DNA of 55,766 nt from an uncultured Planctomycetaceae bacterium. GTDB lineage: Bacteria; Planctomycetota; Planctomycetia; Pirellulales; PNKZ01. The stretch is taken from assembly GCA_964433865.1 (NCBI GenBank), contig CAYSUC010000001.1:1-55766 (forward strand). Direction: 5' to 3'. Position numbers and translations under genes: made by a program. Positions 5,601 to 15,722 of this stretch are shown here, in pieces; the first letter of the stretch is position 1; each line of letters starts with the position of its first letter. The notes below the pieces were generated by a model. That model saw nothing but the letters and a program-made list of their open reading frames with translations. It was not told the origin of the DNA and searched no databases.

Positions 5601-5688
5601 CCCGACGGCTGTGGGAACAGCGACACCGTGGCAAGAGCGACACATTCACAGGACTTACGAGGTCGTCGTGAGTCCTTTCGTATCAAAG

Positions 5689-5771
5689 TACCGGAGGTGG
5701 GACTTGAACCCACACTATCTTGCGATAACTGGATTTTGAGTCCAGCGCGTCTGCCATTCCGCCACTCCGGC
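5689..5771 (-). tRNA. tRNA-Leu (anticodon CAA), long variable arm, no encoded CCA
   Basis: The reverse complement is GCCGGAGTGGCGGAATGGCAGACGCGCTGGACTCAAAATCCAGTTATCGCAAGATAGTGTGGGTTCAAGTCCCACCTCCGGTA. The acceptor stem is GCCGGAG/CTCCGGT (G1-U72). The anticodon stem is CTGGA/TCCAG with loop CT-CAA-AA. The variable arm is TATC/GATA and the T arm is GTGGG-TTCAAGT-CCCAC. Confidence 0.9.
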
Positions 5772-6705
5772 GCGGGCGTTCGGTCCGGCCGGGGCGGGAC
5801 CGCACATGCGGGCGTTCCCCGCAGACTTCTTAGTCTAGCATTTTCCCGAGAATTGCAACCCGCCGCGCAGGCGATTTCCCAAGGCCGCTCAAACATTGAG
5901 GATGCCGAGTCGGTTGCCGCGAGGAGTTTCGGCTCGGAAGGCGCTTTCTCGGCGGGGCGGCAGTCGCGGCTAGGTCGAGGGTGCGGAGCAAGTTCACGAT
6001 GCCCTCGTGCAGACAACTCGGGGCTTGCGGTGCGGTTCCGCAAATGCGGCCACCGCCGTCGACCACACGCGGTTCGCCGATCGTCACCAGGGTCTCGACC
6101 TTCGCCTGACCGGCGTCGAACCGGTTCGCGTGGTCAACGAACTGCCGGCGTGACGCCGTTCGGCGCCCTGCGGCGGCTCGCGCGCCGCCGACGCCTCGGC
6201 CGATTCCGTTGCAACGAATTAACGTGTTTATCCATCAAGAGTTAATTCATTGCATTGCATTGCATACACACCCCGGATCGCCGGCCCGACCGCGCCGGCC
6301 GCGGCTTGGGTAGTCGCCGCAATCGACGATCGGCTAGGGCTTTACAACGCCGGCCGAAAATCGCTTTGACAAATCCCCCCGGGCGCGGCACACTCCCCCT
6401 TCGCACGGCGGCGGTTTCCGAATCGAGTGTATTTCACCGCGACTCGCGGAGTTCTCGATTCGCAAATCCGCGGCGCGCCGCCGGCGCCAGAAGGTCTTCG
6501 TTCGCCCGACGGGGGTTTTCCATGAATCGCTTGACGACGTTTCTCGATCGCTACTTCGCCGTTTCGCCACAAGCCTTCCACTTGCGAGCCCGCTCTCGGC
6601 GATTCACCCTCTCTCAGGCTCCAATCGCTACTCTGCGAGGATCGAGCCCGATCTTGGCGATCATCCGCGCTTCGGTCCTACATCCATCGAAGGGAACACA
6701 GTTCC

Positions 6706-7518
6706 ATGCGCGACTGCTCCTTAGATTTGCTGCGATCTTACGGTGATTCCGTCGAATCTGCGGGAAAGCGTACCCGTGGAACTGTGTTGATTCTTACCGT
6801 GGCGTGCGTGCTCGGGTTGGCCGGGTTTCTGAATTCGTTCAAGCACGGCTGGATGCGACAGCGCATCGCCGCGGTTACGAATAAATCGAGTGACTATGTC
6901 AGCACGACACTCAAACTCGATCCTAGTGGATCCCCGAGAAATAGCGAAGAATACAAGGCCTTCGTCCAGAGCATCATCCGATCGTATGTCGAAAACTCGT
7001 TTTCGATTACGGTGCCGTTTTTCGGAGCGACTTTCGACGTGAACGACCTCGGACTGCTGGTGGGGATCGGTTTGACGATCATCTTGCTGATGCTGTGGTA
7101 TGGCTTGAAGTCGGAGAGAAGAGCGCTGGTCCTCGGATTCAGATACGCCAAACGGCACGATCTACTCGAGCCGTTTTACGCGATTCAAGCGGGCCGGCAA
7201 GTATTGGTCACGCCTCCGATCCAAGGCCGAACGAAACATGGTCCGACCAAGCTGGTGGCGATCGTTGCGAGGTTCTTTATCCAACTATTTCCCGCAATGG
7301 TGTACACGCTGATCGCGGTCAACGATTTTTATACGTCCGATATCGGCAATGCGATCAGTCCGACGCATACGAAAATCGTGATCGCCTACACTGCCGTGCT
7401 CTGGGTGGCGATTATTTGGGTCGGCCTACTCTGCTGGATGGAATGGCTGGCGATCGATCGAATTTGGGAAAAGCGCAACCCGTGGCCTGCTGAACGCGAT
7501 GACGAAGACGATGCTTGA
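6706..7518 (+). CDS. hypothetical 4-TM membrane protein (low-GC island)
   Basis: ATG 6706 is preceded by gaagggaa. There are four hydrophobic segments: VLILTVACVLGLAGFL, LLVGIGLTIILLMLWYGL, FFIQLFPAMVYTLIAV and IAYTAVLWVAIIWVGLLCW, plus an acidic tail. GC is about 52% by hand count. No family recognised. Confidence 0.6.
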   Translation: MRDCSLDLLRSYGDSVESAGKRTRGTVLILTVACVLGLAGFLNSFKHGWMRQRIAAVTNKSSDYVSTTLKLDPSGSPRNSEEYKAFVQSIIRSYVENSFSITVPFFGATFDVNDLGLLVGIGLTIILLMLWYGLKSERRALVLGFRYAKRHDLLEPFYAIQAGRQVLVTPPIQGRTKHGPTKLVAIVARFFIQLFPAMVYTLIAVNDFYTSDIGNAISPTHTKIVIAYTAVLWVAIIWVGLLCWMEWLAIDRIWEKRNPWPAERDDEDDA

Positions 7519-7764
7519 GTATTCGAAGTGTGAGGAGGAGCCACCGCCGCGGGGGCGATTCGGGTCACGGTCGAGCCGGCCTCTAACCGCAGTCCCGACG
7601 CCGTCGACGACGACTACGAACTGACGATCGGCCACGACGACGCGAGGGGCTACGTCGATTGGGGTTGGCTCCGCGACCAGTTCGTTCTGAGCAACGATAC
7701 CGACCCGGACGCGGGACAGACGCTGTCGGTAAGCCGGTGGGACGCGCCGACGTACGGCGAGTGG

Positions 7765-10296
7765 TTGTCCGCCGGCGAAAGCCGGTCGTACGCGTATGAA
7801 GCGAGCGACGGCCACGGCGGCAGCGACACGGCCACCCTGCGGGTCCGCGTGGTCCGCCCGAACCAAAGCCCCACGGCCCGCGACGACGTGAACGAGGTGC
7901 AGTTCGGCCGCGACGAATCGGGACGGTTCGTCGACCTGGGCTCGTACGCGCCGTCGACCGAGAACGACGAGGACCCGGACGGCGACGAACTATCGATCAC
8001 CGGCACGGGCGCCCCGAGCGGCCAGTCGTGGCTGGCGGCCGGGGCCGAACTGTTCTACCGCTACTTCCTCAGCGACGGCCACGGCGGCACGGCCGAAGCC
8101 CGCGTCGTCGTCCGCGGTTGGCCGGCGCCGAACGAGGACCCGGTAACGCAGGACGATGAGTACACGGTGCTTCCCTACGGGACGACGAACAACCTGGGGA
8201 GCGTGAAGGACAACGATCGCGATCCGGAAGGAGATCCGCTGTCGGTCCGAGCCGGCACGATCAGCACGACGGGCGGCGGCAGCGTGAGCATGAGCGCCGA
8301 CGGCACGTTCAGCTACGCGCCGAGTCCCGGGGAACTGAATCGGCAGTTCAGCGACTCGTTCGAGTACGTGCTGGAAGACGACCGCGGCGGCACGGCCGCC
8401 GGCCGCGTGACGCTGACCACGCCGCCGTTGCCGTCGGTGACGATCGCCGCCGTCGACGCGGACGCTTACGAAGGGATCGCGAACACGAGCTACTATCCGG
8501 TCGCGGGCCGTTTCACCGTGACCCGCAGCGGCGACCAGACCGACGCGCTGACCGTGACGTACTCGATCGGCGGCAGCGCGACGAACTATTACGACTATCG
8601 GCTGCTGTCGCGGACCGTGGTCATCGAGGCGGGCCGAGCGACGGCCGATGTCGTGATCGATCCGGTGAGCGACGGCCTGGACGAAGGAGACGAGACGGTC
8701 GAACTCGTCATCTCCGAGAGTGAAGCATATCAGCGCGGCGCCGAATGCCAGGCGACGGTCGTGATTCACGATCCGCCGAGCCTGACGGCGCCGGCCGACC
8801 AAACGCACCGCGAAGGCTCGCGCCCCACGCTGCAACTGACGGCGCAGAACCTCCGCGGCGGCGAGCGGTACGTCGTGACGGGCCTTCCGAGCGGCCTGAA
8901 CGTCGATGGGGCGAGCGGTCTGATCTCGGGCAAGATCGCGTACGATGCGTACGACCAAATGCCGTCCGGCGGCTACGGCATCACGGCCTACCTGCAAGAC
9001 GCCGCAGGCAACGTGCTGAGCACGGTGAACTTCCGGTGGAACGTCCTCAACGCCGCGATCGGGCGGTTGGTAGGTCGCGAGTTTCATCCGGCCGTCGGCG
9101 ACGATCCTCAGGGCTTCACCAGCAACTGGCAGTACGCCCAAGGCCTTACTTGGTCGCCGATCTACGTGTCGCCGCTCAATACCGTAAGACTCTCGGTCGG
9201 CGGCGTCGACGTGCCTCCGGATTACGCGGACATCTTATGGCAAGCGACCGAACAGGCGCACGGTGATTTCACGAACCCGGACGAAGCCGAGGTCGAACTC
9301 TACGCAGGCGTCGTGATCCAGGTGATCGCCGGCATCGATCTGAATCTGAACGGCGCGCTCGATGCGAACGAGCACACGCATTCCTTGTCGCTGCATCGCA
9401 TCAACTTCGACGGTGTAACGTTTACGTCGCGCCGAACGTCATCGTATGCGCCGGAAAGCACGGGCTTCGCGATTCGCGAGGACGAATTGTTCGAGGTCGA
9501 CGGAGAATTCGAATTCGAGGTTCAAGCGGGTCCGACATCGGTGATGGGTGACCCCAGCCTGATTCGAGCCGCCGTTTGGGACGCCGCGTCGAACTCTACG
9601 CTTTCCGACGACAACGATCCGACATTCAATTACGTCACGAACGTGGTGTCGACCTACCTTCGTACGCGCGTGTACGCCGATGCGAACGACAACCACCGTT
9701 ATGACGCAGGCGAGCTGTACGAAGACTCGGAGCGGTTCACGGTTATGCCGCGCAAGGAGTACTCGTTCGGCCTGTGGTGGTCGAGCGCCTTAGCGGCGGA
9801 TCCGTCGGTCCGAATCGAGGGCTGGATGGACTACGGCACGCGGATTTGTCTGACGCGCGACGACGTCGACGACTGGCGCGCGCCGGTGCTGTTCTCGTTG
9901 AACACCGATTCCTTTATGTTCACCGCAGGCGGTACGAGCGGTTGGGGACCGTGGAGCCACATGACGCCCGATCCGGTGATGACCTACGACGATGCGCTCG
10001 AACTCTTCGCCGCTGCACCGCAGTGGACTATTATCGCCGTCGGCAGTATGCAAGGCCTTCAGGCGCGAGGCATAGCGGAAGGGATCGATGGCTTTCCGTG
10101 GATCAACGAAATCATCATCGATATGAGCACCGCGCGCGATGAGACGCTTGCACACGAAATCGGACACCTTTCGGGATTGGCGCACGAGGACGCTCCGTCC
10201 AACGACCACATCATGCGCGACGGGACGCTTCGCAATCCCGGCGCCTCGAAGCTGACGAAACAGAATGCCTATGAATATGCCGAGCGGCTCCTCTGA
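7765..10296 (+). CDS. cadherin-like repeat / Calx-beta / Ig-like protein with C-terminal metzincin domain; probable 5'-truncated module (repeat homology open from 7534)
   Basis: Repeats read ..NDTDPDAGQTLSV.., ..NDEDPDGDELSI.. and ..NDRDPEGDPLSV.. A Calx-beta-like block is VTIAAVDADAYEG...DETVELVI. An Ig-like block is GLPSGLNVDGASGLISG. The extreme C-terminus reads TLAHEIGHLSGLAHEDAPSNDHIMRDG (HExxHxxGxxH plus a Met-turn). There is no signal peptide. The first canonical start is TTG 7765, but the repeat sequence is in frame from 7534. Confidence 0.7.
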   Translation: MSAGESRSYAYEASDGHGGSDTATLRVRVVRPNQSPTARDDVNEVQFGRDESGRFVDLGSYAPSTENDEDPDGDELSITGTGAPSGQSWLAAGAELFYRYFLSDGHGGTAEARVVVRGWPAPNEDPVTQDDEYTVLPYGTTNNLGSVKDNDRDPEGDPLSVRAGTISTTGGGSVSMSADGTFSYAPSPGELNRQFSDSFEYVLEDDRGGTAAGRVTLTTPPLPSVTIAAVDADAYEGIANTSYYPVAGRFTVTRSGDQTDALTVTYSIGGSATNYYDYRLLSRTVVIEAGRATADVVIDPVSDGLDEGDETVELVISESEAYQRGAECQATVVIHDPPSLTAPADQTHREGSRPTLQLTAQNLRGGERYVVTGLPSGLNVDGASGLISGKIAYDAYDQMPSGGYGITAYLQDAAGNVLSTVNFRWNVLNAAIGRLVGREFHPAVGDDPQGFTSNWQYAQGLTWSPIYVSPLNTVRLSVGGVDVPPDYADILWQATEQAHGDFTNPDEAEVELYAGVVIQVIAGIDLNLNGALDANEHTHSLSLHRINFDGVTFTSRRTSSYAPESTGFAIREDELFEVDGEFEFEVQAGPTSVMGDPSLIRAAVWDAASNSTLSDDNDPTFNYVTNVVSTYLRTRVYADANDNHRYDAGELYEDSERFTVMPRKEYSFGLWWSSALAADPSVRIEGWMDYGTRICLTRDDVDDWRAPVLFSLNTDSFMFTAGGTSGWGPWSHMTPDPVMTYDDALELFAAAPQWTIIAVGSMQGLQARGIAEGIDGFPWINEIIIDMSTARDETLAHEIGHLSGLAHEDAPSNDHIMRDGTLRNPGASKLTKQNAYEYAERLL

Positions 10297-10300
10297 AAAT

Positions 10301-10858
10301 ATGCGATTTCCGTTACCGGCCGGATGGAGCTCGTTTGTGTATCGCAGACGCTGGATTGCGGTCGTTGCGGCCGTCTATGCTTTGATTTGCGTCGTCGTCC
10401 CGGTGTTTGTCCGTCCGATGCCGACCGTTCCCGTCGACTCGATGTTCGGAGGATCGCGCGGGGGGTGCGGGAATCTGACGGCGTATCGCTTTAGTGAAGA
10501 CCGGCATATGGCGATCGTATTCGACTTGAACGACTATAAGGTGGAAAACGGCATCGTGCAGACTTTCTCCGTTGGTCCGCCGAAGGGGCAGTCTGCAATC
10601 CATGTCTACGAACTTGCGTCGCGCGACTATCGATTTTGCGACGACGTGCTTCCTCGCGATCCGCCGAAATACACGTGGAAGGCGACCGCCGGAAACGCGG
10701 AAGTGAGATACTTGCGGGACGGAAATACTGCTACCGGTTCGTTCTACGTCCGTGTGCGATTACGCGATGTCAACCTCACGAATACAAAGACGGGCGCCAT
10801 GGCGCATCTAAAGAGTGTCGATATCGAGGAGGTTATGGTAGGCTGGCTGAGCGGCTAG
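10301..10858 (+). CDS. hypothetical N-terminally anchored protein, paralog 1 (candidate immunity protein)
   Basis: ATG 10301 lies 5 nt after the upstream stop. There is one N-terminal helix (WIAVVAAVYALICVVVPVF). By hand alignment it is homologous to the next ORF. Low GC. Confidence 0.6.
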   Translation: MRFPLPAGWSSFVYRRRWIAVVAAVYALICVVVPVFVRPMPTVPVDSMFGGSRGGCGNLTAYRFSEDRHMAIVFDLNDYKVENGIVQTFSVGPPKGQSAIHVYELASRDYRFCDDVLPRDPPKYTWKATAGNAEVRYLRDGNTATGSFYVRVRLRDVNLTNTKTGAMAHLKSVDIEEVMVGWLSG

Positions 10859-10887
10859 ACGCATCGAGACACGAGGCGAGTTGCGTC

Positions 10888-11514
10888 ATGGTGGCATTTC
10901 CGACGATCGTCGGTGTCCGGACGTTACGATGGTTGCGAATCGGCGTCGTCTTCGCGTCGGGTTGCGCGGTCGGAGTGGGCGTTTGTTGGTATCGCGCTCT
11001 ACCGCGACACGTCGATCTCATCATGCCGACGGCGGCAATGTTCGAGCAGAAGCCCCGCGGAATCGGAACATTTGGAGCTTGCCGTTTCAGTCAACAGGGA
11101 AACGTGGTGTTCTACGTGTATTGGGAGAACGACTTAGCCAGGCTCCCCGACGGCGCGACGACGGTCGAGATCGCAGACCGTCCGCGGGCCTTGAGTGTTC
11201 AGGTCCTGCAATTCGACAGACCTTCGTGGGATTATTTCTACGACGACGTCGTCGACGGCGTGCCGCGGATCGTCGCAACCTGGCGCGCCATCGAAGGCCG
11301 GGTGACAATCAACAAAGAGCGCCGCGCCACCCAAGAAACCACACATCGCCTCAGTTTCGCCCTGCGCGGCGTTCGCATCGTCTGCGAAAGGGCGAATGCC
11401 GAAATCGTATTGGGAGACCTCGACCTCAAGGACGTCGATGCGGGACGTCGGCGAGAGGGTGCCCTCGACGACACCGAACCGCTGGCGACCGTGTCCGTCG
11501 CCGCTTCTCCCTAA
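10888..11514 (+). CDS. hypothetical N-terminally anchored protein, paralog 2 (candidate immunity protein)
   Basis: ATG 10888. The N-terminal helix is LRIGVVFASGCAVGVGVCW. It shares these blocks with 10301-10858: MPT..MF, (Y/C)RFS, DY..DDV, TW(K/R)A..G..V, and LR.V...L...D...V..G. Confidence 0.6.
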   Translation: MVAFPTIVGVRTLRWLRIGVVFASGCAVGVGVCWYRALPRHVDLIMPTAAMFEQKPRGIGTFGACRFSQQGNVVFYVYWENDLARLPDGATTVEIADRPRALSVQVLQFDRPSWDYFYDDVVDGVPRIVATWRAIEGRVTINKERRATQETTHRLSFALRGVRIVCERANAEIVLGDLDLKDVDAGRRREGALDDTEPLATVSVAASP

Positions 11515-11553
11515 AAAATCGACGGACGTCGATCCGGCAGCGACGAAGGTCGC

Positions 11554-13482
11554 GTGACGTTCATCGTGCATCCGAACCCGATCGCCGGTCCGAACGAGTA
11601 CACGGCCTACACGAACGAGCCGCTCGAGGTGCAACCCCGCGGCGTGCTGGGGAACGACGAGGACCCGGAAGACCCGACGGGGGATTCGCTGACGGTCGAC
11701 GCGCAGTCGAACCTGCGGACGGACCACGGGTATGTGAACCTCCGCGCCGGCGGCGGTTTCACCTACACGCCCGACCACGACTACTACGGCCCGGACGGCT
11801 TCGAGTACGTGGTCCGCAACGCCTACGGTCAGGCGACGGGTCGGGTGACGATCGACGTGGTGCGGACCTGGGCCGAGCCGGACAAGTATGCGATGCTGAA
11901 GGGGACGACGCTGGCGGTGGGCCCGGATCGGGCGTTGGTGCGGAACGACTGGGGCGAATGGCACCACCTGCGGATCGTCACCGGCCCGACGCAAGGGCAA
12001 CTGTCGGACTTCGACGACGTCGAGGGTACGTTCACGTACCAGTCGGACGTCGACACCGAGGAGCCCGACTTCTTCACCTACGCCCTGGTGCGAGCAGACG
12101 GCACCGAAGCGGCGTATACGACGGCGACGATTACTCCCAAGCGCGCTAAACTTAATTCGGTTTGGGGCATCCTGAAATCTCATGCAGGCACGAGCCTGCT
12201 GAACGATAACGGAGTAACGCAGGACGATGCCTGGATCGATCGCAACGGCGACGGCACGGACGATCCCGGAGACGTGCGCAACGCGTTCGTTACGACTCGG
12301 AACACGCAACTGAAGCTGAAACCGACCGTCACGTTGGACGACTTCGATCCGGAAAGAGACGTCTGGATTCGCGGCAACGGCAGCGGCCAGGTACGTCACG
12401 ATCTGCACGTCGTGCGGGCCGTCTTCGATCCGGTGAAACTCAATGACTTGGGTAACGGCCGTTACGGCTTCGCCCCGACGGACTTGGATGGTGCCGAAAC
12501 CACCGGCTCCTTCAGCGAGTCGGCGGGAATCGTAGACGATCTCGTCGTCGATTGGGAAGTCTCCGTCGATGGCGGACAGTCCTGGGCAAAGGCCGGTACC
12601 AGCGCCAATCGGGTGTACGTTTCGTGGGCCACGGCTCCGGCTTCGATTTTGGGCCTGCCGCTGTACGAGACGTTGTTGTCGCTCGGATGTACGGCCGCTG
12701 GAGGCGTCGGCGATGATGCAGCCGCGATCCAAGCGATCGCGGAAAGTCTCTCCGATCAGTTCGAGACGCAAAGCGTCGTTCGCCTCAGCGACGGGGCGGC
12801 GCTGAAATACTATGCCTCGTGGAACGCGACGTCGCAGTCGACCGCGGATCTGCTTCGTTCCACGGATGGTCGATGCGGATCGTTCGCTCGGATCTTCATC
12901 GATACCTTGCGGCTGCAAGGGATCGCGGATGCGCACCTCACGGAAGTTCGCGCTACGGACGCCGTTGCCGTGAGTGGACCGGAGGAGTATTCCCATTGGA
13001 TGCTGATCAACGATTGGACGTTCAGCGCCGTCGGCAGTTCAGGAGGCGCGTCGGACGGCTACACGCACGAGTTCGTCTTCGAAAAGGGCTTCAATCCGAA
13101 CACCTACCTGCACACGTCGTTTGAAATCATTCGCGGCGACGGCGCCGATCAATCGGGCATCGCCGGGCACGGAGGGGTCGCGAATCCCAAATCGAACCAC
13201 AACAACCATGCGCTCGTGCACATGGTGTTCGGGGGCGTCGAGCGCTGGTACGATCCCAGCTACGGTCGTGCCTATAACAGTCAGGCCGAGTTCGAGGAGC
13301 AGGCGCTCGCCGGCGTGTACCGCTGGGACCAGAAGAGCTTTCAAGAATCGTCCATAAGTCGCGACTTCGACGAAGACGGGGAAATCGAAATCGGCGTCGA
13401 AGCGCTGCTGAACGTGTGGTACGTGAAGCCGAAACGGGATCATCAGGCCGAACTGTTGACCGTATTTACGGACATTTCCTAG
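11554..13482 (+). CDS. cadherin-like repeat protein with C-terminal transglutaminase/papain-like Cys-His-Asp domain; probable 5'-truncated module
   Basis: GTG 11554 lies inside the repeat-junction motif (DEGR)VTFIVHPNPIAGPNEY. Repeat blocks include VLGNDEDPEDPTGDSLTV and GRVTIDVV. The C-terminal core reads DGRCGSFARIFIDTLRLQGI ... NHALVHMVFGGVERWYDPSYG. There is no signal peptide. Confidence 0.7.
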   Translation: MTFIVHPNPIAGPNEYTAYTNEPLEVQPRGVLGNDEDPEDPTGDSLTVDAQSNLRTDHGYVNLRAGGGFTYTPDHDYYGPDGFEYVVRNAYGQATGRVTIDVVRTWAEPDKYAMLKGTTLAVGPDRALVRNDWGEWHHLRIVTGPTQGQLSDFDDVEGTFTYQSDVDTEEPDFFTYALVRADGTEAAYTTATITPKRAKLNSVWGILKSHAGTSLLNDNGVTQDDAWIDRNGDGTDDPGDVRNAFVTTRNTQLKLKPTVTLDDFDPERDVWIRGNGSGQVRHDLHVVRAVFDPVKLNDLGNGRYGFAPTDLDGAETTGSFSESAGIVDDLVVDWEVSVDGGQSWAKAGTSANRVYVSWATAPASILGLPLYETLLSLGCTAAGGVGDDAAAIQAIAESLSDQFETQSVVRLSDGAALKYYASWNATSQSTADLLRSTDGRCGSFARIFIDTLRLQGIADAHLTEVRATDAVAVSGPEEYSHWMLINDWTFSAVGSSGGASDGYTHEFVFEKGFNPNTYLHTSFEIIRGDGADQSGIAGHGGVANPKSNHNNHALVHMVFGGVERWYDPSYGRAYNSQAEFEEQALAGVYRWDQKSFQESSISRDFDEDGEIEIGVEALLNVWYVKPKRDHQAELLTVFTDIS

Positions 13483-13559
13483 CCGTAAATGCCACGTGCC
13501 TCGAACTGATGAGAAAGGGCGTTCGGTATTCGTCTTGCCGACGATCGAAGGAACGTAAG

Positions 13560-14876
13560 ATGGCTCGATGCTTCCCCGTATTATGGATCACGTTAGGAAC
13601 CGCCGCGGTATGTGCGGGTTCGTCGGCCGCTGCCGAGACGTTCGACATGCGTCGGGCGATGTATGACCTGCGCGCGGTCTACCTGGATACGACATCGATC
13701 TACGTCTACGGTTATCGCGAAGAAAATCCGTATTCACGACGCATTATTCGCGCGGTAACGGAATGGTCCGTTGACGAGCCTCACTATAAGCACGAATGGC
13801 TGGATGGGAGCACATTCGGTGGGCACGGTGTACACGAAAAACCGTTTCCCAGTAGATTAAAGTACGACGGTGTTTGGGTATGGGAATCCGGAGCGCGAGA
13901 TTCGATGGGGTTCAGACGCTTGTGTCCGGCATTTGACTGTACACGCAACGACGTTCGCCGGTTTACAGACACCGGCCGATTCGACCAGATTCCGAAACCG
14001 CAATGGGGTGTGCCGCGGCCCGACTTCGGACGCGATCGACTTCTCGATTCCGTATACGGACTCTCCGGCCCTAAAGTGGAAGGCGTGGGGACATGGCTTC
14101 TTCCGCTCTACAATTCCTACTTGTTGGACTACGAACTCACACCCCGCGGGTATTGGGATGAAACCCGAAAAAGAGCCGTCGACCACGCGAAGGGCGACAT
14201 GCTCCGTTGCGCGCGCAGCGCGGCCTATGATTTCGTTCCCCTATCGGCGCAGAAGTACCGGTTGTTTTTCATTTCCGAGCCGGTCGGACGCCGGCGCCTG
14301 ATACTTCCCCCGACGTCGCAGCGAACGGCCTTCGTATTGGATTATGAATTTCACGATGCGTTCGACGCCAAGGCCCCATCGCCGAAACACTATTGGAACA
14401 ACTCGCTGACTTTGGCCGAGCAATTTCCCGTCGATTTCGTCACGCCGTTCCACTGCTACCCGCGTGACGGGGCGTACTTTTTCGTGCTGGATTCGGGCGA
14501 ATTGTACGGCACCACGGCGGCCGTCGCCGATCGGACTTCGCGGCGTCTGCCGCTGCGCGACGGCGAATTGATTCAGACCGTGATCACCGATCTCGATCGC
14601 AGCGGCGCCGCCTTCGCCTTCACGTCGAAGTATTGGTTCGAGGTGCGGGAGCCGATCGAGTATCGGCAGTTCGAACTGGGTCCGCTGAAGACGGACGACC
14701 CGCTGCCGACCTTGGTCCGCGCGGCCCGCGAGATCCGCAAGTTCTACCCCGCGATTCCGAAGCAAGACGCCCCCGCGAACGCCGCCGCACCGCCGGCCCC
14801 GCCGCCGTTGAGCAGCGGCAGGGCAACAAGGAGCCATGAACTCCCGGAACACTCATGGTGCCCCACCGTCAGATAA
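13560..14876 (+). CDS. hypothetical secreted protein (signal peptide), low GC
   Basis: ATG 13560 follows gaaggaa. The product starts MARCFPVLWITLGTAAVCAGSSAAAETF (Sec signal). It is 438 aa with a Pro/Ala-rich tail. No family recognised. Confidence 0.6.
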   Translation: MARCFPVLWITLGTAAVCAGSSAAAETFDMRRAMYDLRAVYLDTTSIYVYGYREENPYSRRIIRAVTEWSVDEPHYKHEWLDGSTFGGHGVHEKPFPSRLKYDGVWVWESGARDSMGFRRLCPAFDCTRNDVRRFTDTGRFDQIPKPQWGVPRPDFGRDRLLDSVYGLSGPKVEGVGTWLLPLYNSYLLDYELTPRGYWDETRKRAVDHAKGDMLRCARSAAYDFVPLSAQKYRLFFISEPVGRRRLILPPTSQRTAFVLDYEFHDAFDAKAPSPKHYWNNSLTLAEQFPVDFVTPFHCYPRDGAYFFVLDSGELYGTTAAVADRTSRRLPLRDGELIQTVITDLDRSGAAFAFTSKYWFEVREPIEYRQFELGPLKTDDPLPTLVRAAREIRKFYPAIPKQDAPANAAAPPAPPPLSSGRATRSHELPEHSWCPTVR

Positions 14877-14880
14877 TGCT

Positions 14881-15480
14881 TCATTCGGCGTCGGCTGGCG
14901 GAGACCACTTTTCGATCTTCGGCCCCCGCCAGTTACCGAAGAACATGTAACTGCCGCTCGCAACAAGCCCGGTGAAGGTCACGAGCAAATACCAATTTGG
15001 CTCGATACGGAATGCGACAAGGTACAAGAGAACCAAGAGACCGGCAAGGAACCCGAGGGACGCGACGCCGAGCTTGATAATATCCATTAGCCCCTTGCGT
15101 TTTGCCTCCTTCAAGTCATGTTCCATGTCTTTCGCTCTTCGGATAGCAGTGTCGGCCTGTTGCGCGAACCGGGCCGCTTCCGCTCTTAGCGACTCAAGCT
15201 CCTCGGTATTGACTGCGTTATAAGACGCGCCAAGTTTCGTTTCGCTAATGATCTTGTCGCAAATACCGGACAGTGAAAGAACCAGCGGCTTAAAGTCGTC
15301 GAAGTATTCCAGCTGGCCGCCGGAATTCTCTGCTACGAAACGGGTTTTAAATTCACCATCTTCCCAAACCCAGACCTCCCACAGGTCGAGCGTCAGGAAG
15401 CGAGTCGGGGTATAGGCTTTCACGACCGACCCCTCGTTTTGGGACCTCACAAAGTTCTTAATGTCGCTCTTGGTCGCCAC
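14881..15480 (-). CDS. hypothetical protein: soluble N-domain, coiled coil, two C-terminal TM helices
   Basis: GTG 15480 is preceded by gggagagg. GC is about 47% by hand count. The coiled-coil segment is EELESLRAEAARFAQQADTAIRRAKDMEHDLKEAKRK. The TM helices are LGVASLGFLAGLLVLLYLVAF and WYLLVTFTGLVASGSYMFF. It is convergent with 13560-14876, with a 4-nt gap. Confidence 0.6.
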   Translation of the reverse strand: MATKSDIKNFVRSQNEGSVVKAYTPTRFLTLDLWEVWVWEDGEFKTRFVAENSGGQLEYFDDFKPLVLSLSGICDKIISETKLGASYNAVNTEELESLRAEAARFAQQADTAIRRAKDMEHDLKEAKRKGLMDIIKLGVASLGFLAGLLVLLYLVAFRIEPNWYLLVTFTGLVASGSYMFFGNWRGPKIEKWSPPADAE

Positions 15481-15722
15481 CTAAACCTCTCCCGTGTTAA
15501 CGCGGAACTTGTGACTCCGTCGATCCCGTCGACATCAACACCCTAGGAAGTCGGCGCGCCGATGTAAAGCGAAACGTTACCGGACGGTGCGGCGCCTCGG
15601 AACCTAGCGTTCAACGCACCGCGGGCTTCGTGTCGTGATGCGCCGAAGCACGACTTCGGTCCGTGCGCGCGGCGTGTGCGCTTTGGCGCCGAGCGGCGGC
15701 GCCGTTGCTTGCGGGCCCCTCC

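What the first reader, a model, noticed from the sequence alone, without database searches (positions are those of the whole stretch)
7519..10296. Repeat homology runs upstream of every canonical start codon, behind a strong SD-like GAGGAGGAG
Seen in sequence:
- After TGA 7531-7533 the frame is open from 7534 and reads GGATAAGAIRVTVEPASNRSPDAVDDDYELTIGHDD...SNDTDPDAGQTLSV... This is a bona fide repeat junction plus a repeat unit.
- There is no in-frame ATG, GTG or TTG before TTG 7765. The only candidates are ATT 7558 and CTG codons.
- GAGGAGGAG (7532-7540) looks like a ribosome-binding site with nothing canonical to start on.
- The upstream 4-TM ORF (6706-7518) is in the same frame, separated only by TGA-gta-ttc-gaa-gtg-TGA.

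Inference: one of three things explains this. It may be a 5'-truncated orphan module, non-canonical initiation, or a recombination scar that cut off the trunk and export signal.
Basis: partly seen in the sequence, partly recalled or inferred. Interest (0 to 1): 0.6.

Follow-up and report, generated by a model that had tools for sequence, protein, structure and literature searches.

The report
Start-less orphan cadherin-repeat metalloprotease cassette
The open frame 7534-10296 is a headless copy of a large exported cadherin-repeat metalloprotease: it lacks a start codon and an export signal yet is still kept intact by selection, much like the silent spare toxin cassettes of CDI/Rhs systems, here in a planctomycete-type genome with a different kind of gene body.

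Summary
The frame opens at 7534, right after TGA 7531-33. It has no in-frame ATG, GTG or TTG before TTG 7765. The 77 codons in between are true cadherin-like repeat sequence.

The SD-like GAGGAGGAG is probably fortuitous. It has no start at working distance and is absent from two orthologous loci.

- **Orthologues:** L010/L011 and L014 (about 90% nt identity) show the module always begins at about 7534, behind two different upstream genes.
- **Selection:** the stretch before TTG 7765 is under frame-specific purifying selection (omega 0.15, p=4e-6).
- **No conserved start:** none of the loci shares a start codon.
- **Missing head:** full-length relatives (P0125, and C50 in this genome) carry an N-terminal LE[DEQ]RxxL-type export signal and a long trunk. 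This ORF lacks both.
- **Composition:** GC3 is about 0.66 in the upstream 4-TM gene, 0.84-0.89 in the repeat part and 0.74-0.76 in the C-terminal metzincin part. It is 0.67-0.71 in the two downstream partner genes.
- **Second case:** a second start-poor module (11515-13482) follows at the same repeat phase.

Best reading (0.55): an orphan 5'-truncated effector plus partner cassette, analogous to cdiA-CT/rhs orphans. In-situ non-canonical translation is not excluded. Toxicity, immunity and expression are all untested.

The parts
6706..7518 (+). 270-aa four-helix membrane protein ORF directly upstream, in the same frame. It may be a left-over partner or immunity gene of a lost module.
   Evidence: ORF and translation. 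No Pfam or NCBIfam family. GC3 is 0.66. A 93%-identical orthologue exists in L010/L011, with omega 0.115. My hand reading of the positive-inside rule puts both termini in the cytoplasm; this is inference.
7519..7533 (+). 15-nt spacer (GTA TTC GAA GTG TGA) holding the second in-frame TGA. This is the junction or breakpoint.
   Evidence: Sequence. L010 has a spacer of equal length that matches at only 6 of 15 positions and has no second stop. L014 has unrelated sequence here.
7532..7540 (+). SD-like GAGGAGGAG, partly made of two Gly codons (GGA GGA) of the repeat tail. Probably fortuitous.
   Evidence: No start-like triplet lies 5-10 nt downstream. In this genome the working SD-to-ATG spacing is 6-8 nt. 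There are 26 genomic copies, mostly inside ORFs. L010 reads CAGCGCGGG and L014 reads ATGGTAGGG at this position.
7534..7587 (+). Orphan tail of a preceding repeat plus linker (GGATAAGAIRVTVEPASN). This is the 5' edge of the module.
   Evidence: It aligns with the internal repeat tails GGSDTATLRVRVVRPN and GGTAEARVVVRGWPAPN. Three-way homology among window, L010 and L014 starts at about 7534-7540.
7558..7560 (+). ATT (Ile) codon, the only conserved near-cognate candidate start.
   Evidence: It is conserved in the window, L010/L011 and L014. ATT makes up 17% of Ile codons in high-GC3 ORFs. It lies 19 nt after the GGAGG core, which is too far. No SD is conserved upstream of it in the orthologues.
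7588..7845 (+). First complete cadherin-like (Big_9 / tandem-95) domain. It straddles the annotated start.
   Evidence: Pfam Big_9 covers residues 19-104, model positions 2-88 of 89.
7765..7767 (+). TTG, the first canonical in-frame start and the gene caller's choice. It lies inside a domain and is not the biological start.
   Evidence: The upstream codons are under purifying selection.
7534..8361 (+). High-GC3 repeat module (three Big_9 repeats) shared at about 90% nt identity with L014 and L010/L011.
   Evidence: blastn matches L014 1227-2046 to window 7540-8359 at 90.1%. GC3 is 0.84-0.89 against 0.66 upstream. Omega is 0.24 over 276 codons, p=6e-9.
8512..9045 (+). Calx-beta-like domain (residues 327-414) and He_PIG Ig-like domain (residues 414-504).
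   Evidence: Pfam E=0.0025 and E=9.9e-5, both just below their cut-offs. Colinear homology to P0125 starts at residue 415.
9046..9750 (+). Two Ig-like beta-sandwich domains of the conserved C-terminal unit.
   Evidence: AlphaFold2 model with mean pLDDT 75.7. Foldseek matches tandem Ig domains. The family has 78 representatives, and in the members I inspected the unit lies at or near the C-terminus.
9754..10293 (+). Metzincin catalytic domain. HEIGHLSGLAH is at 10153-10185 and the Met-turn M894 at 10213-10215.
   Evidence: H370, E371, G373, H374 and H380 are invariant and M390 nearly invariant in the 13-sequence alignment A2. Foldseek gives probability 1.00 to mature fragilysin 9xvw_A (TM 0.50 on the target) and to ADAM-8 4dd8_A (0.46).
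10301..10858 (+). Partner gene 1 (185 aa, one N-terminal hydrophobic helix). Candidate inhibitor or immunity protein.
   Evidence: Translation. It is 32% identical over 75 aa (E=7e-6) to the gene right after the full-length relative P0125 in L006. GC3 is 0.67.
10888..11514 (+). Partner gene 2 (208 aa), a paralogue of partner 1.
   Evidence: 26% identity over 143 aa, E=2e-5. GC3 is 0.71.
11515..13482 (+). Second module. Its frame opens right after TAA 11512-14 at the same repeat phase (KIDGRRSGSDEGRVTFIVHPNP). It holds one or two Big_9 repeats and a C-terminal transglutaminase-like domain. Its only start is GTG 11554, a Val codon of the repeat tail.
   Evidence: There is no signal peptide. GC3 is 0.88 in the 5' part and 0.72-0.75 in the rest.
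13560..14876 (+). 438-aa signal-peptide protein following the second module. Possible partner.
   Evidence: Translation. No Pfam family. GC3 is 0.70.

Best explanation
7534-10296 is an orphan cassette. It is the 3' 920 codons of a modular, normally exported protein: N-terminal LE[DEQ]RxxL-type signal, long cadherin-like/Calx-beta trunk, He_PIG, two Ig-like domains and an ADAM/fragilysin-like metzincin. The signal and the upstream trunk were cut off at a repeat junction.

The cassette travels with its own downstream partner genes (10301-11514). It sits in a low-GC accessory block in tandem with a second cassette of the same design (11515-13482 plus 13560-14876).

Its 5' edge is a fixed module boundary, because recombination has placed the same module behind different genes in different genomes. 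It has no start codon of its own, and the GAGGAGGAG is an accident of two Gly codons.

Most likely it is transcribed with its neighbours but not translated, or barely so, from this position. It stays intact because it can be joined by recombination in the repeat region to a full-length gene, and because its partner genes are useful. That is how orphan cdiA-CT/cdiI and rhs-CT modules are thought to work.

**Shown:** the truncation relative to family members, the conserved 5' edge in two contexts, purifying selection, the composition mosaic, and co-variation of the partner gene.

**Inferred:** silence in situ, recombinational re-use, and the antagonistic (toxin/immunity) role.
For: 1. Missing head. 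Full-length relatives have export signals and trunks:
   - P0125 (2870 aa) reads ...HLEQRVVLNAAP followed by Big_9.
   - P0140 carries LEDRSLLSAAP.
   - P0139 and P0143 carry Sec signals.
   - The own-genome C50 protein (1394 aa) reads ...EQLEMRVVLNADP followed by Big_9, Calx-beta and a metzincin C-terminus.
   - About 14 proteins of this genome use the LE[DE]R motif.
   - P1 starts instead with the tail of an internal repeat.
2. Fixed 5' edge in different contexts.
   - L010/L011 (two runs) keep the order 4-TM, stop, module.
   - L014 has the module (90% nt) behind a C50-type metzincin C-terminus (33% identity, E=6e-27) and a 116-aa WD40-like ORF.
   - Homology starts at 7534-7540 in all of them.
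3. No conserved initiation signal. The window and L010 have no canonical start. L014 has GTGs only in its unrelated spacer, plus an out-of-frame AAGGAG-N5-ATG. GAGGAGGAG is not conserved.
4. Kept intact.
   - Omega is 0.24 over 276 codons (p=6e-9) and 0.15 over the 77 codons before TTG 7765. Control frames give 1.2 and 4.7-6.4.
   - HExxHxxGxxH and the Met-turn are intact.
   - The model has a metzincin fold.
5. Composition mosaic typical of exchangeable tips.
   - In P1, GC3 is 0.84-0.89 in the trunk part, 0.74-0.76 in the C-terminal part and 0.67-0.71 in the partner genes.
   - The second module shows the same pattern.
   - L014 gives 0.51, 0.54, 0.88 and 0.57 across its segments.
   - L006 gives 0.73-0.76 for the trunk, 0.60 for the C-terminal part and 0.55 for the partner.
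6. The partner gene co-varies with the C-terminal subtype.
   - An imm1-like gene follows both P1 and P0125.
   - LRR proteins follow P0130 and P0133.
   - WD40 proteins follow the C50 gene and the L014 upstream gene.
7. Precedent. [quoted passage not shown] Their shared homology between genomes starts exactly at a conserved motif (PMC3150448). Cassettes occur as toxin-immunity pairs that recombine onto a constant 5' gene body (PMC3482391).
8. The junction is not an assembler artefact. Logan contig L005, an independent assembly, is 100% identical across 6379-8618, and the orthologous contigs show the same order.
Against: - No full-length gene lies next to the array in the window.
- No gene in this roughly 90%-complete, 797-contig assembly shares more than 29% identity with the repeat module. 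The homologous recombination partner is therefore missing or unassembled.
- The module keeps about 500 residues of trunk, far more than typical CDI/Rhs orphans.
- No toxicity or immunity has been shown. The C-terminal unit (about 500 aa including He_PIG) could simply be a secreted protease with an inhibitor or partner.
- Purifying selection, together with a 5' edge that is the same in every copy, is also what a gene translated in situ would show.
- ATT 7558 is conserved.
- In all three independent junctions the upstream ORF is in frame with the module (chance about 0.04). The orphan model does not predict this.
- Only three orthologous contigs exist, and all are short.
Confidence: 0.55

Rival explanations
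1. The ORF is a working gene translated in situ without a canonical start. Translation would begin by weak initiation at the conserved AUU 7558 or another near-cognate codon, or by re-initiation of ribosomes that terminate at the upstream ORF. The product would be a signal-less cadherin-metzincin protein, perhaps deliberately made at a low level.
For: - Frame-specific purifying selection covers the first 77 codons.
- The 5' edge is the same in three loci and two contexts.
- ATT is conserved although it makes up only 17% of Ile codons.
- The upstream ORF ends 0-15 nt before the module and is in the same frame at 3 of 3 independent junctions.
- The second module has GTG 11554 with a GAAGG 4 nt upstream.
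Against: - No SD or spacing is conserved before ATT: 19 nt in the window, 31 nt in L014, none in L010.
- In the 8 codons upstream of ATT, 4 codons carry only synonymous changes against 3 amino-acid changes between window and L010. By hand count, this hints that constraint reaches beyond ATT.
- A signal-less cytoplasmic cadherin/Calx-beta protein is biologically odd, since every complete relative inspected is built for export.
- From my own knowledge, AUU starts give roughly 1% or less of AUG output in E. coli.
Confidence: 0.25
2. It is a plain decaying pseudogene. A deletion or insertion in a genomic island removed the 5' half of a once complete gene, and the remainder is on its way out.
For: - There is no start, no signal and no main gene nearby.
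- The L014 copy is also cut at its 3' side, at the position equivalent to window 8359, followed by low-GC DNA and a stop.
- One family member (L003/L004) carries an in-frame TAG.
Against: - 920 codons are open with the catalytic motif intact.
- Omega of 0.15-0.24 has accumulated since the three copies, which already shared the truncated edge, diverged (dS 0.26-0.6).
- The same edge recurs behind different genes.
Confidence: 0.12
3. The 4-TM ORF and the repeat ORF form one protein made by read-through of the in-frame stop codon(s), giving a membrane-anchored cadherin-metzincin.
For: - The two ORFs share a frame.
- In L010 only a single TGA separates them.
- The 116-aa ORF in L014 and imm2 before the second module are likewise in frame.
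Against: - The window has two TGAs. The three junctions use TGA, TAG and TAA respectively.
- TGA is this ORF's own terminator.
- By the positive-inside rule (my inference) the 4-TM C-terminus is cytoplasmic, so the fused domains would face the wrong way.
- GC3 and the history of the two parts differ.
Confidence: 0.04
4. The junction is an assembly chimera of a metagenome-assembled genome.
For: - The genome has 797 contigs and 5.9% estimated contamination.
- Composition changes abruptly at the junction.
Against: - An independent Logan assembly is identical across the junction.
- Two further runs give orthologous contigs with the same gene order.
Confidence: 0.02

Closest known systems
Orphan cdiA-CT/cdiI and rhs-CT/rhsI modules of CDI and Rhs polymorphic toxin systems (Poole et al. 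2011, PMC3150448; Zhang et al. 2012, PMC3482391)
   Same: - A 5'-truncated open frame without a translation start keeps a piece of the conserved gene body plus an intact C-terminal enzyme.
- It is followed by its own small partner gene(s).
- Several such modules lie in tandem.
- The module edge falls at a conserved sequence motif and is shared between genomes.
- The tip and partner have lower GC than the body.
- The ORF is kept intact.
   Different: - The gene body is made of cadherin-like Big_9/tandem-95, Calx-beta and Ig-like domains, not FHA or RHS repeats. 'Cadherin' is not mentioned at all in the 2012 survey.
- There is no VENN or PxxxxDPxGL motif, and the edge is a repeat junction.
- The retained body is about 500 aa.
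- No main gene lies in the locus and no close parent is in the assembly.
- Export of full-length relatives appears to rest on a planctomycete-type N-terminal LE[DE]RxxL signal or a Sec signal, not on T5SS or T6SS.
- Toxicity and immunity are untested.
Adamalysin/ADAM-type metzincins, including Bacteroides fragilis fragilysin
   Same: The HExxHxxGxxH motif, the Met-turn and the predicted fold match (Foldseek probability 1.00).
   Different: - Sequence identity is only about 13%.
- The catalytic motif lies within about 45 residues of the C-terminus.
- Two Ig-like domains and a He_PIG domain precede the catalytic domain instead of a pro-domain.
- No Pfam metzincin family reaches its cut-off.
Large bacterial tandem-95 / Big_9 repeat adhesin-like proteins
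   Same: Three Big_9/Cadherin_4 repeats score above the Pfam cut-offs.
   Different: Those proteins are complete exported proteins with N-terminal signals or T1SS signals. This one starts inside the repeat array.

Membership tests
Polymorphic-toxin orphan cassette (CDI/Rhs type) | An open frame that lacks its own start codon and initiation signal and begins inside the conserved gene body | tested here: met
   No in-frame ATG, GTG or TTG lies in 7534-7764. The frame begins with a repeat tail. No start is conserved in the orthologues.
Polymorphic-toxin orphan cassette (CDI/Rhs type) | Lies downstream of a full-length main gene of the same system | tested here: not met
   In the window the upstream neighbours are a 4-TM ORF, about 930 nt without a gene, and tRNA-Leu. 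Only in L014 does a C50-type metzincin gene end precede the module.
Polymorphic-toxin orphan cassette (CDI/Rhs type) | Close sequence homology of the retained body to a main gene, allowing recombination | tested here: not met
   The best own-genome match is C50 at 29% amino-acid identity, with no nucleotide match. 60 related genomes reach at most 38%. The assembly is incomplete, so absence is not proven.
Polymorphic-toxin orphan cassette (CDI/Rhs type) | A cognate partner (immunity) gene lies immediately downstream and co-varies with the C-terminal domain | tested here: inconclusive
   An imm1-like gene follows both P1 and P0125. LRR and WD40 partners follow other subtypes. The sample is small and function is untested.
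Polymorphic-toxin orphan cassette (CDI/Rhs type) | The C-terminal domain is toxic to cells and is neutralised by the partner | not testable with these tools
   This needs expression assays.
Polymorphic-toxin orphan cassette (CDI/Rhs type) | The same C-terminal family is joined to varied N-terminal bodies, and the tip differs in composition from the body | tested here: met
   There are 78 representatives. In the members inspected the unit lies at or near the C-terminus of proteins of 400-2870 aa with different N-terminal domains. The GC3 mosaic is shown.
Metzincin metallopeptidases | HExxHxxGxxH zinc-binding motif | tested here: met
   HEIGHLSGLAH at 10153-10185. H, E, G, H and H are invariant in alignment A2.
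Metzincin metallopeptidases | Conserved Met-turn downstream of the third His | tested here: met
   M894 (in HIM) is nearly invariant, at 90% or more of sequences.
Metzincin metallopeptidases | Metzincin catalytic fold | tested here: met
   The model has pLDDT 75.7. Foldseek gives probability 1.00 and target TM-scores of 0.46-0.50 to fragilysin and ADAM-8. The loop after the motif (377-401) has low confidence.
Bacterial cadherin-like Big_9 / Cadherin_4 repeats | Pfam score above the gathering cut-off | tested here: met
   Cadherin_4 scores 80 bits, Big_9 72 bits and Cadherin_5 40 bits. The 77-aa leader alone scores 29.6 bits against a cut-off of 25.1.
Exported planctomycete-type large proteins | N-terminal basic stretch plus an LE[DEQ]RxxL motif, or a Sec signal | tested here: not met
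   The feature is absent from 7534 onward. It is present in C50, in about 14 other proteins of the genome, and in P0125, P0140 and the L003 gene.
Ordinary SD-led bacterial gene start | A Shine-Dalgarno motif 5-10 nt before a start codon, conserved in orthologues | tested here: not met
   No start-like triplet lies at 7543-7552. The genome's working spacing is 6-8 nt. The motif is absent from L010 and L014.

The most novel reading that the evidence does not exclude
The start-less cadherin modules are really expressed where they lie. Ribosomes finishing the small upstream partner ORF, which is in frame at 3 of 3 junctions, would re-initiate or initiate on a non-canonical codon such as the conserved AUU. 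This would define a conserved, deliberately weak mode of making signal-less effector proteins in planctomycete-type bacteria. The repeat-junction edge would then be a functional N-terminus rather than a scar.
Probability: 0.15. Interest if true: 0.75.

Novelty: new variant of a known kind. Interest (0 to 1): 0.55.

Why it matters
If the reading is right, the orphan-cassette logic known from CDI and Rhs systems also operates in a planctomycete-type lineage. There it works on a quite different chassis: a cadherin-like/Calx-beta trunk, an LE[DE]R-type export signal, a large Ig-plus-metzincin tip, and repeat-protein or membrane partners.

It would also show that tandem-95 repeat junctions can act as the exchange point. 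This gives a testable handle on why such repeat proteins are so mosaic.

Practically, it flags a class of gene-caller errors. A TTG chosen inside a domain gives a wrong 843-aa product.

It also supplies a clean test case of an ORF that is under selection but has no start codon.

Tried and rejected
- **Parent gene in the same genome.** tblastn and blastn of the ORF and of 7400-9000 against all 797 contigs found only C50 (29% aa) and the second module (33%). There is no nucleotide-level parent.
- **Orthologues in 60 related genomes.** None for the C-terminal unit, and at most 38% identity for the repeat module.
- **Public collections.** A DNA pattern scan of genome contigs gave one chance match, L022, with no homology.
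- **Recombination scars.** Direct and inverted repeats around the modules showed nothing beyond the internal repeat periodicity. A DNA-level alignment of the junction with the internal repeat junctions was too diverged to place a breakpoint.
- **Promoter and terminator scan.** No promoter-like sites, and terminator-like sites at the chance level.
- **GAGGAGGAG as an RBS.** Rejected.
- **tRNA-linked island integration.** tRNA-Leu(CAA) is on the minus strand with its 3' end facing away from the block, so there is no classical attachment geometry.
- **Downstream genes of five family loci as one conserved immunity family.** Rejected. They fall into several unrelated families that track the C-terminal subtype.


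Full report
**1.

The window is a whole contig (C1) of a 797-contig, 6.1-Mb, 65% GC assembly.

- TGA 7516-18 ends a 270-aa four-helix membrane ORF. A second in-frame TGA lies at 7531-33. The frame is then open for 920 codons to TGA 10294-96.
- A codon-by-codon scan finds no in-frame ATG, GTG or TTG between 7534 and TTG 7765. The only near-cognate codons are ATT 7558, ATC 7627 and three CTGs.
- The public gene call for this contig starts at TTG 7765, giving 843 aa.
- The 77 residues upstream of that TTG score 29.6 bits (E=1e-6) against Pfam Cadherin_4, above the cut-off.
- A complete Big_9 domain covers residues 19-104, so the TTG lies inside a domain.
- Residues 1-18 (GGATAAGAIRVTVEPASN) align with the tail and linker of the internal repeats.

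**2. What the protein is**

- Pfam finds three Cadherin_4/Big_9 repeats, a Calx-beta-like domain and a He_PIG domain.
- An exhaustive search with the last 416 residues found 78 cluster representatives. In the members I inspected the unit lies at or near the C-terminus of proteins of 400-2870 aa with varied N-terminal parts.
- A 13-sequence alignment has H-E-x-x-H-x-x-G-x-x-H invariant and the Met-turn methionine nearly invariant.
- An AlphaFold2 model (pLDDT 75.7) shows two beta-sandwiches followed by an alpha/beta domain. Foldseek matches that domain with probability 1.00 to mature fragilysin and to ADAM-8 and ADAM-10.
- The catalytic apparatus of this copy is intact.

**3. It lacks the head that complete relatives have**

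- P0125 (2870 aa) begins with a basic stretch and ...HLEQRVVLNAAP, followed directly by a Big_9 repeat.
- P0140 has ...LEDRSLLSAAP. P0139 and P0143 have Sec signals.
- In the L003 homologue an 85-aa piece carrying ...ETLEDRCLPSG is split from the rest by an in-frame TAG.
- The window's own genome has about 14 proteins with this N-terminal motif.
- One of them is on contig C50 (7104-11288). It is a complete 1394-aa protein with signal, Big_9, Calx-beta and a metzincin C-terminus, followed by two WD40 paralogues.
- The ORF under study starts instead with the end of an internal repeat.

**4. Composition**

- Core genes of the window have GC3 of 0.83-0.86.
- The 4-TM gene has 0.66, and the repeat part of the ORF 0.84-0.89.
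- The C-terminal unit of the ORF has 0.74-0.76, and the two downstream genes 0.67 and 0.71.
- The step at the junction, from 0.60 to 0.82, falls within one 50-codon window.
- The next large ORF (11515-13482) repeats the pattern: 0.88, then 0.72-0.75, with its downstream gene at 0.70.
- L014 shows the same mosaic across its segments: 0.51, 0.54, 0.88 and 0.57.
- The full-length P0125 locus shows it too: trunk 0.73-0.76, tip 0.60 and partner 0.55.

**5. Orthologous loci: the decisive evidence**

- The 4-TM protein has a 93%-identical orthologue on short contigs from two other runs, L010 and L011.
- There the 4-TM stop is followed by a 15-nt spacer of the same length but only 6 of 15 matching positions, with no second TGA and no GAGGAGGAG. 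It reads ELVDQ-RGATATGTIRVTVEP..., and the module follows.
- A third locus, L014, from an unrelated wastewater assembly, carries the module at 90.1% nt identity (window 7540-8359). It sits behind different genes:
  - the C-terminal end of a C50-type metzincin protein (33% identity, E=6e-27);
  - a 116-aa signal-peptide WD40-like ORF.
- Three-way homology begins at about 7534-7540, so the 5' edge is a fixed module boundary.
- No start is conserved:
  - L014 has GTGs only in its unrelated spacer, plus an out-of-frame AAGGAG-N5-ATG;
  - L010 and the window have none.
- ATT 7558 is conserved in all three.

**6. Selection**

- Nei-Gojobori counts for window versus L014 give omega 0.24 over 276 codons (46.5 synonymous and 39.5 non-synonymous changes, p=6e-9).
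- Over the 77 codons before TTG 7765, omega is 0.15 (p=3.6e-6).
- The other two frames give 1.2 and 4.7-6.4.
- Window versus L010 gives 0.23. The 4-TM gene gives 0.115.
- All copies already share the truncated edge, so this constraint acted on the headless form. The ORF is not a dead remnant.

**7. The SD-like motif**

- The genome does use SD motifs in a minority of genes. AGGAG followed 6-8 nt later by an ATG that opens at least 100 codons is enriched 3-4 fold.
- Nothing start-like lies at that distance from GAGGAGGAG.
- The 9-mer occurs 26 times genome-wide, mostly as Glu codons.
- It is not present in the orthologues.
- It is best read as tGA GGA GGA Gcc, that is, a stop followed by two Gly codons.

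**8. Partner genes**

- The two genes after the ORF are paralogues (E=2e-5).
- The first is homologous to the gene directly after P0125 (32% identity over 75 aa, E=7e-6).
- The LRR proteins after P0130 and P0133 are homologous to each other.
- WD40 proteins follow the C50-type tips.
- The partner family therefore tracks the tip subtype.

**9. Interpretation**

The anatomy matches the orphan cdiA-CT/cdiI and rhs modules on these points:

- start-less fragments that retain part of the gene body;
- intact and functional tips with their own partner genes;
- tandem arrays;
- shared homology between genomes that begins exactly at a conserved motif (PMC3150448; PMC3482391).

It differs in these respects:

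- the trunk type is different, and cadherin is not mentioned in the 2012 survey;
- the retained body is long;
- no adjacent or closely similar main gene was found;
- the antagonistic role is unproven.

An independent Logan assembly identical across 6379-8618 and the orthologous contigs make an assembly chimera unlikely.

**10. What remains open**

- A conserved edge together with purifying selection is also what in-situ translation would give.
- At all three independent junctions the upstream ORF is in frame with the module (chance about 0.04).
- Both modules of the window open at the same repeat phase.

I therefore give the orphan-cassette reading 0.55, in-situ non-canonical translation 0.25, plain decay 0.12, read-through fusion 0.04 and assembly artefact 0.02.

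Noticed in passing
window 6213-6275: A dispersed element of about 60 nt, TGCAACGAATTAA-N16-18-TTAATTCRTTGCATTGCATTGCAYACAC. It is an inverted repeat followed by a TTGCA repeat. It occurs on 47 contigs of the genome in both orientations. Here it lies about 430 nt upstream of the 4-TM gene. It could be a regulatory site, a small RNA or a REP/MITE-like element.
   Followed up: partly
window 11515-13482: A second module of the same design. Its frame opens right after TAA 11512-14 with KIDGRRSGSDEGRVTFIVHPNP, also a repeat tail. Its only start, GTG 11554, is the Val codon that aligns with GTC 7564 of the first module. It has no signal peptide and a weak Transglut_core hit (E=0.006).
   Followed up: partly
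window 7516-7534; window 11512-11515; L014 1158-1161: At three independent junctions the upstream small ORF and the start-less module are in the same reading frame. They are separated only by stop codon(s): TGA..TGA, TAA and TAG respectively. The chance of this is about 0.04 and I have no explanation.
   Followed up: partly
window 7519-7557 versus L010: A 39-nt patch at the junction is only about 56% identical between the window and its orthologue, while the flanks are 90-93% identical. dS of the first 77 codons (0.5-0.6) is three times that of 7765-8361 (0.18). This suggests mosaic ancestry inside the module.
   Followed up: partly
genome contig C50 7104-13476: A complete 1394-aa protein with an LEMRVVLNADP-type signal, Big_9 and Calx-beta domains and a metzincin C-terminus. 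Two WD40 paralogues with signal peptides follow it, with GC3 of 0.64 and 0.83. It is the same type as the gene end that precedes the module in L014.
   Followed up: partly
L003 1909-1911 (also L004): The family member P0130 is split by an in-frame TAG. The stop separates an 85-aa signal-bearing head from the 728-aa body. The sequence is identical in an NCBI assembly and in a Logan contig from another run.
   Followed up: partly
L014 1208-1221 and 2047-2119: A good AAGGAG-N5-ATG sits one base out of frame with the module. At the 3' side the module breaks off inside repeat 3 into 49% GC DNA and the contig ends. This could be an insertion-sequence end.
   Followed up: no
L006 12638-13849: A phage-type integrase gene lies about 3.7 kb downstream of the full-length relative P0125 and its imm1-like partner.
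   Followed up: no
window 5688-5771: tRNA-Leu(CAA) on the minus strand borders the low-GC block (about 6200-15700). Its 3' end points away from the block.
   Followed up: partly
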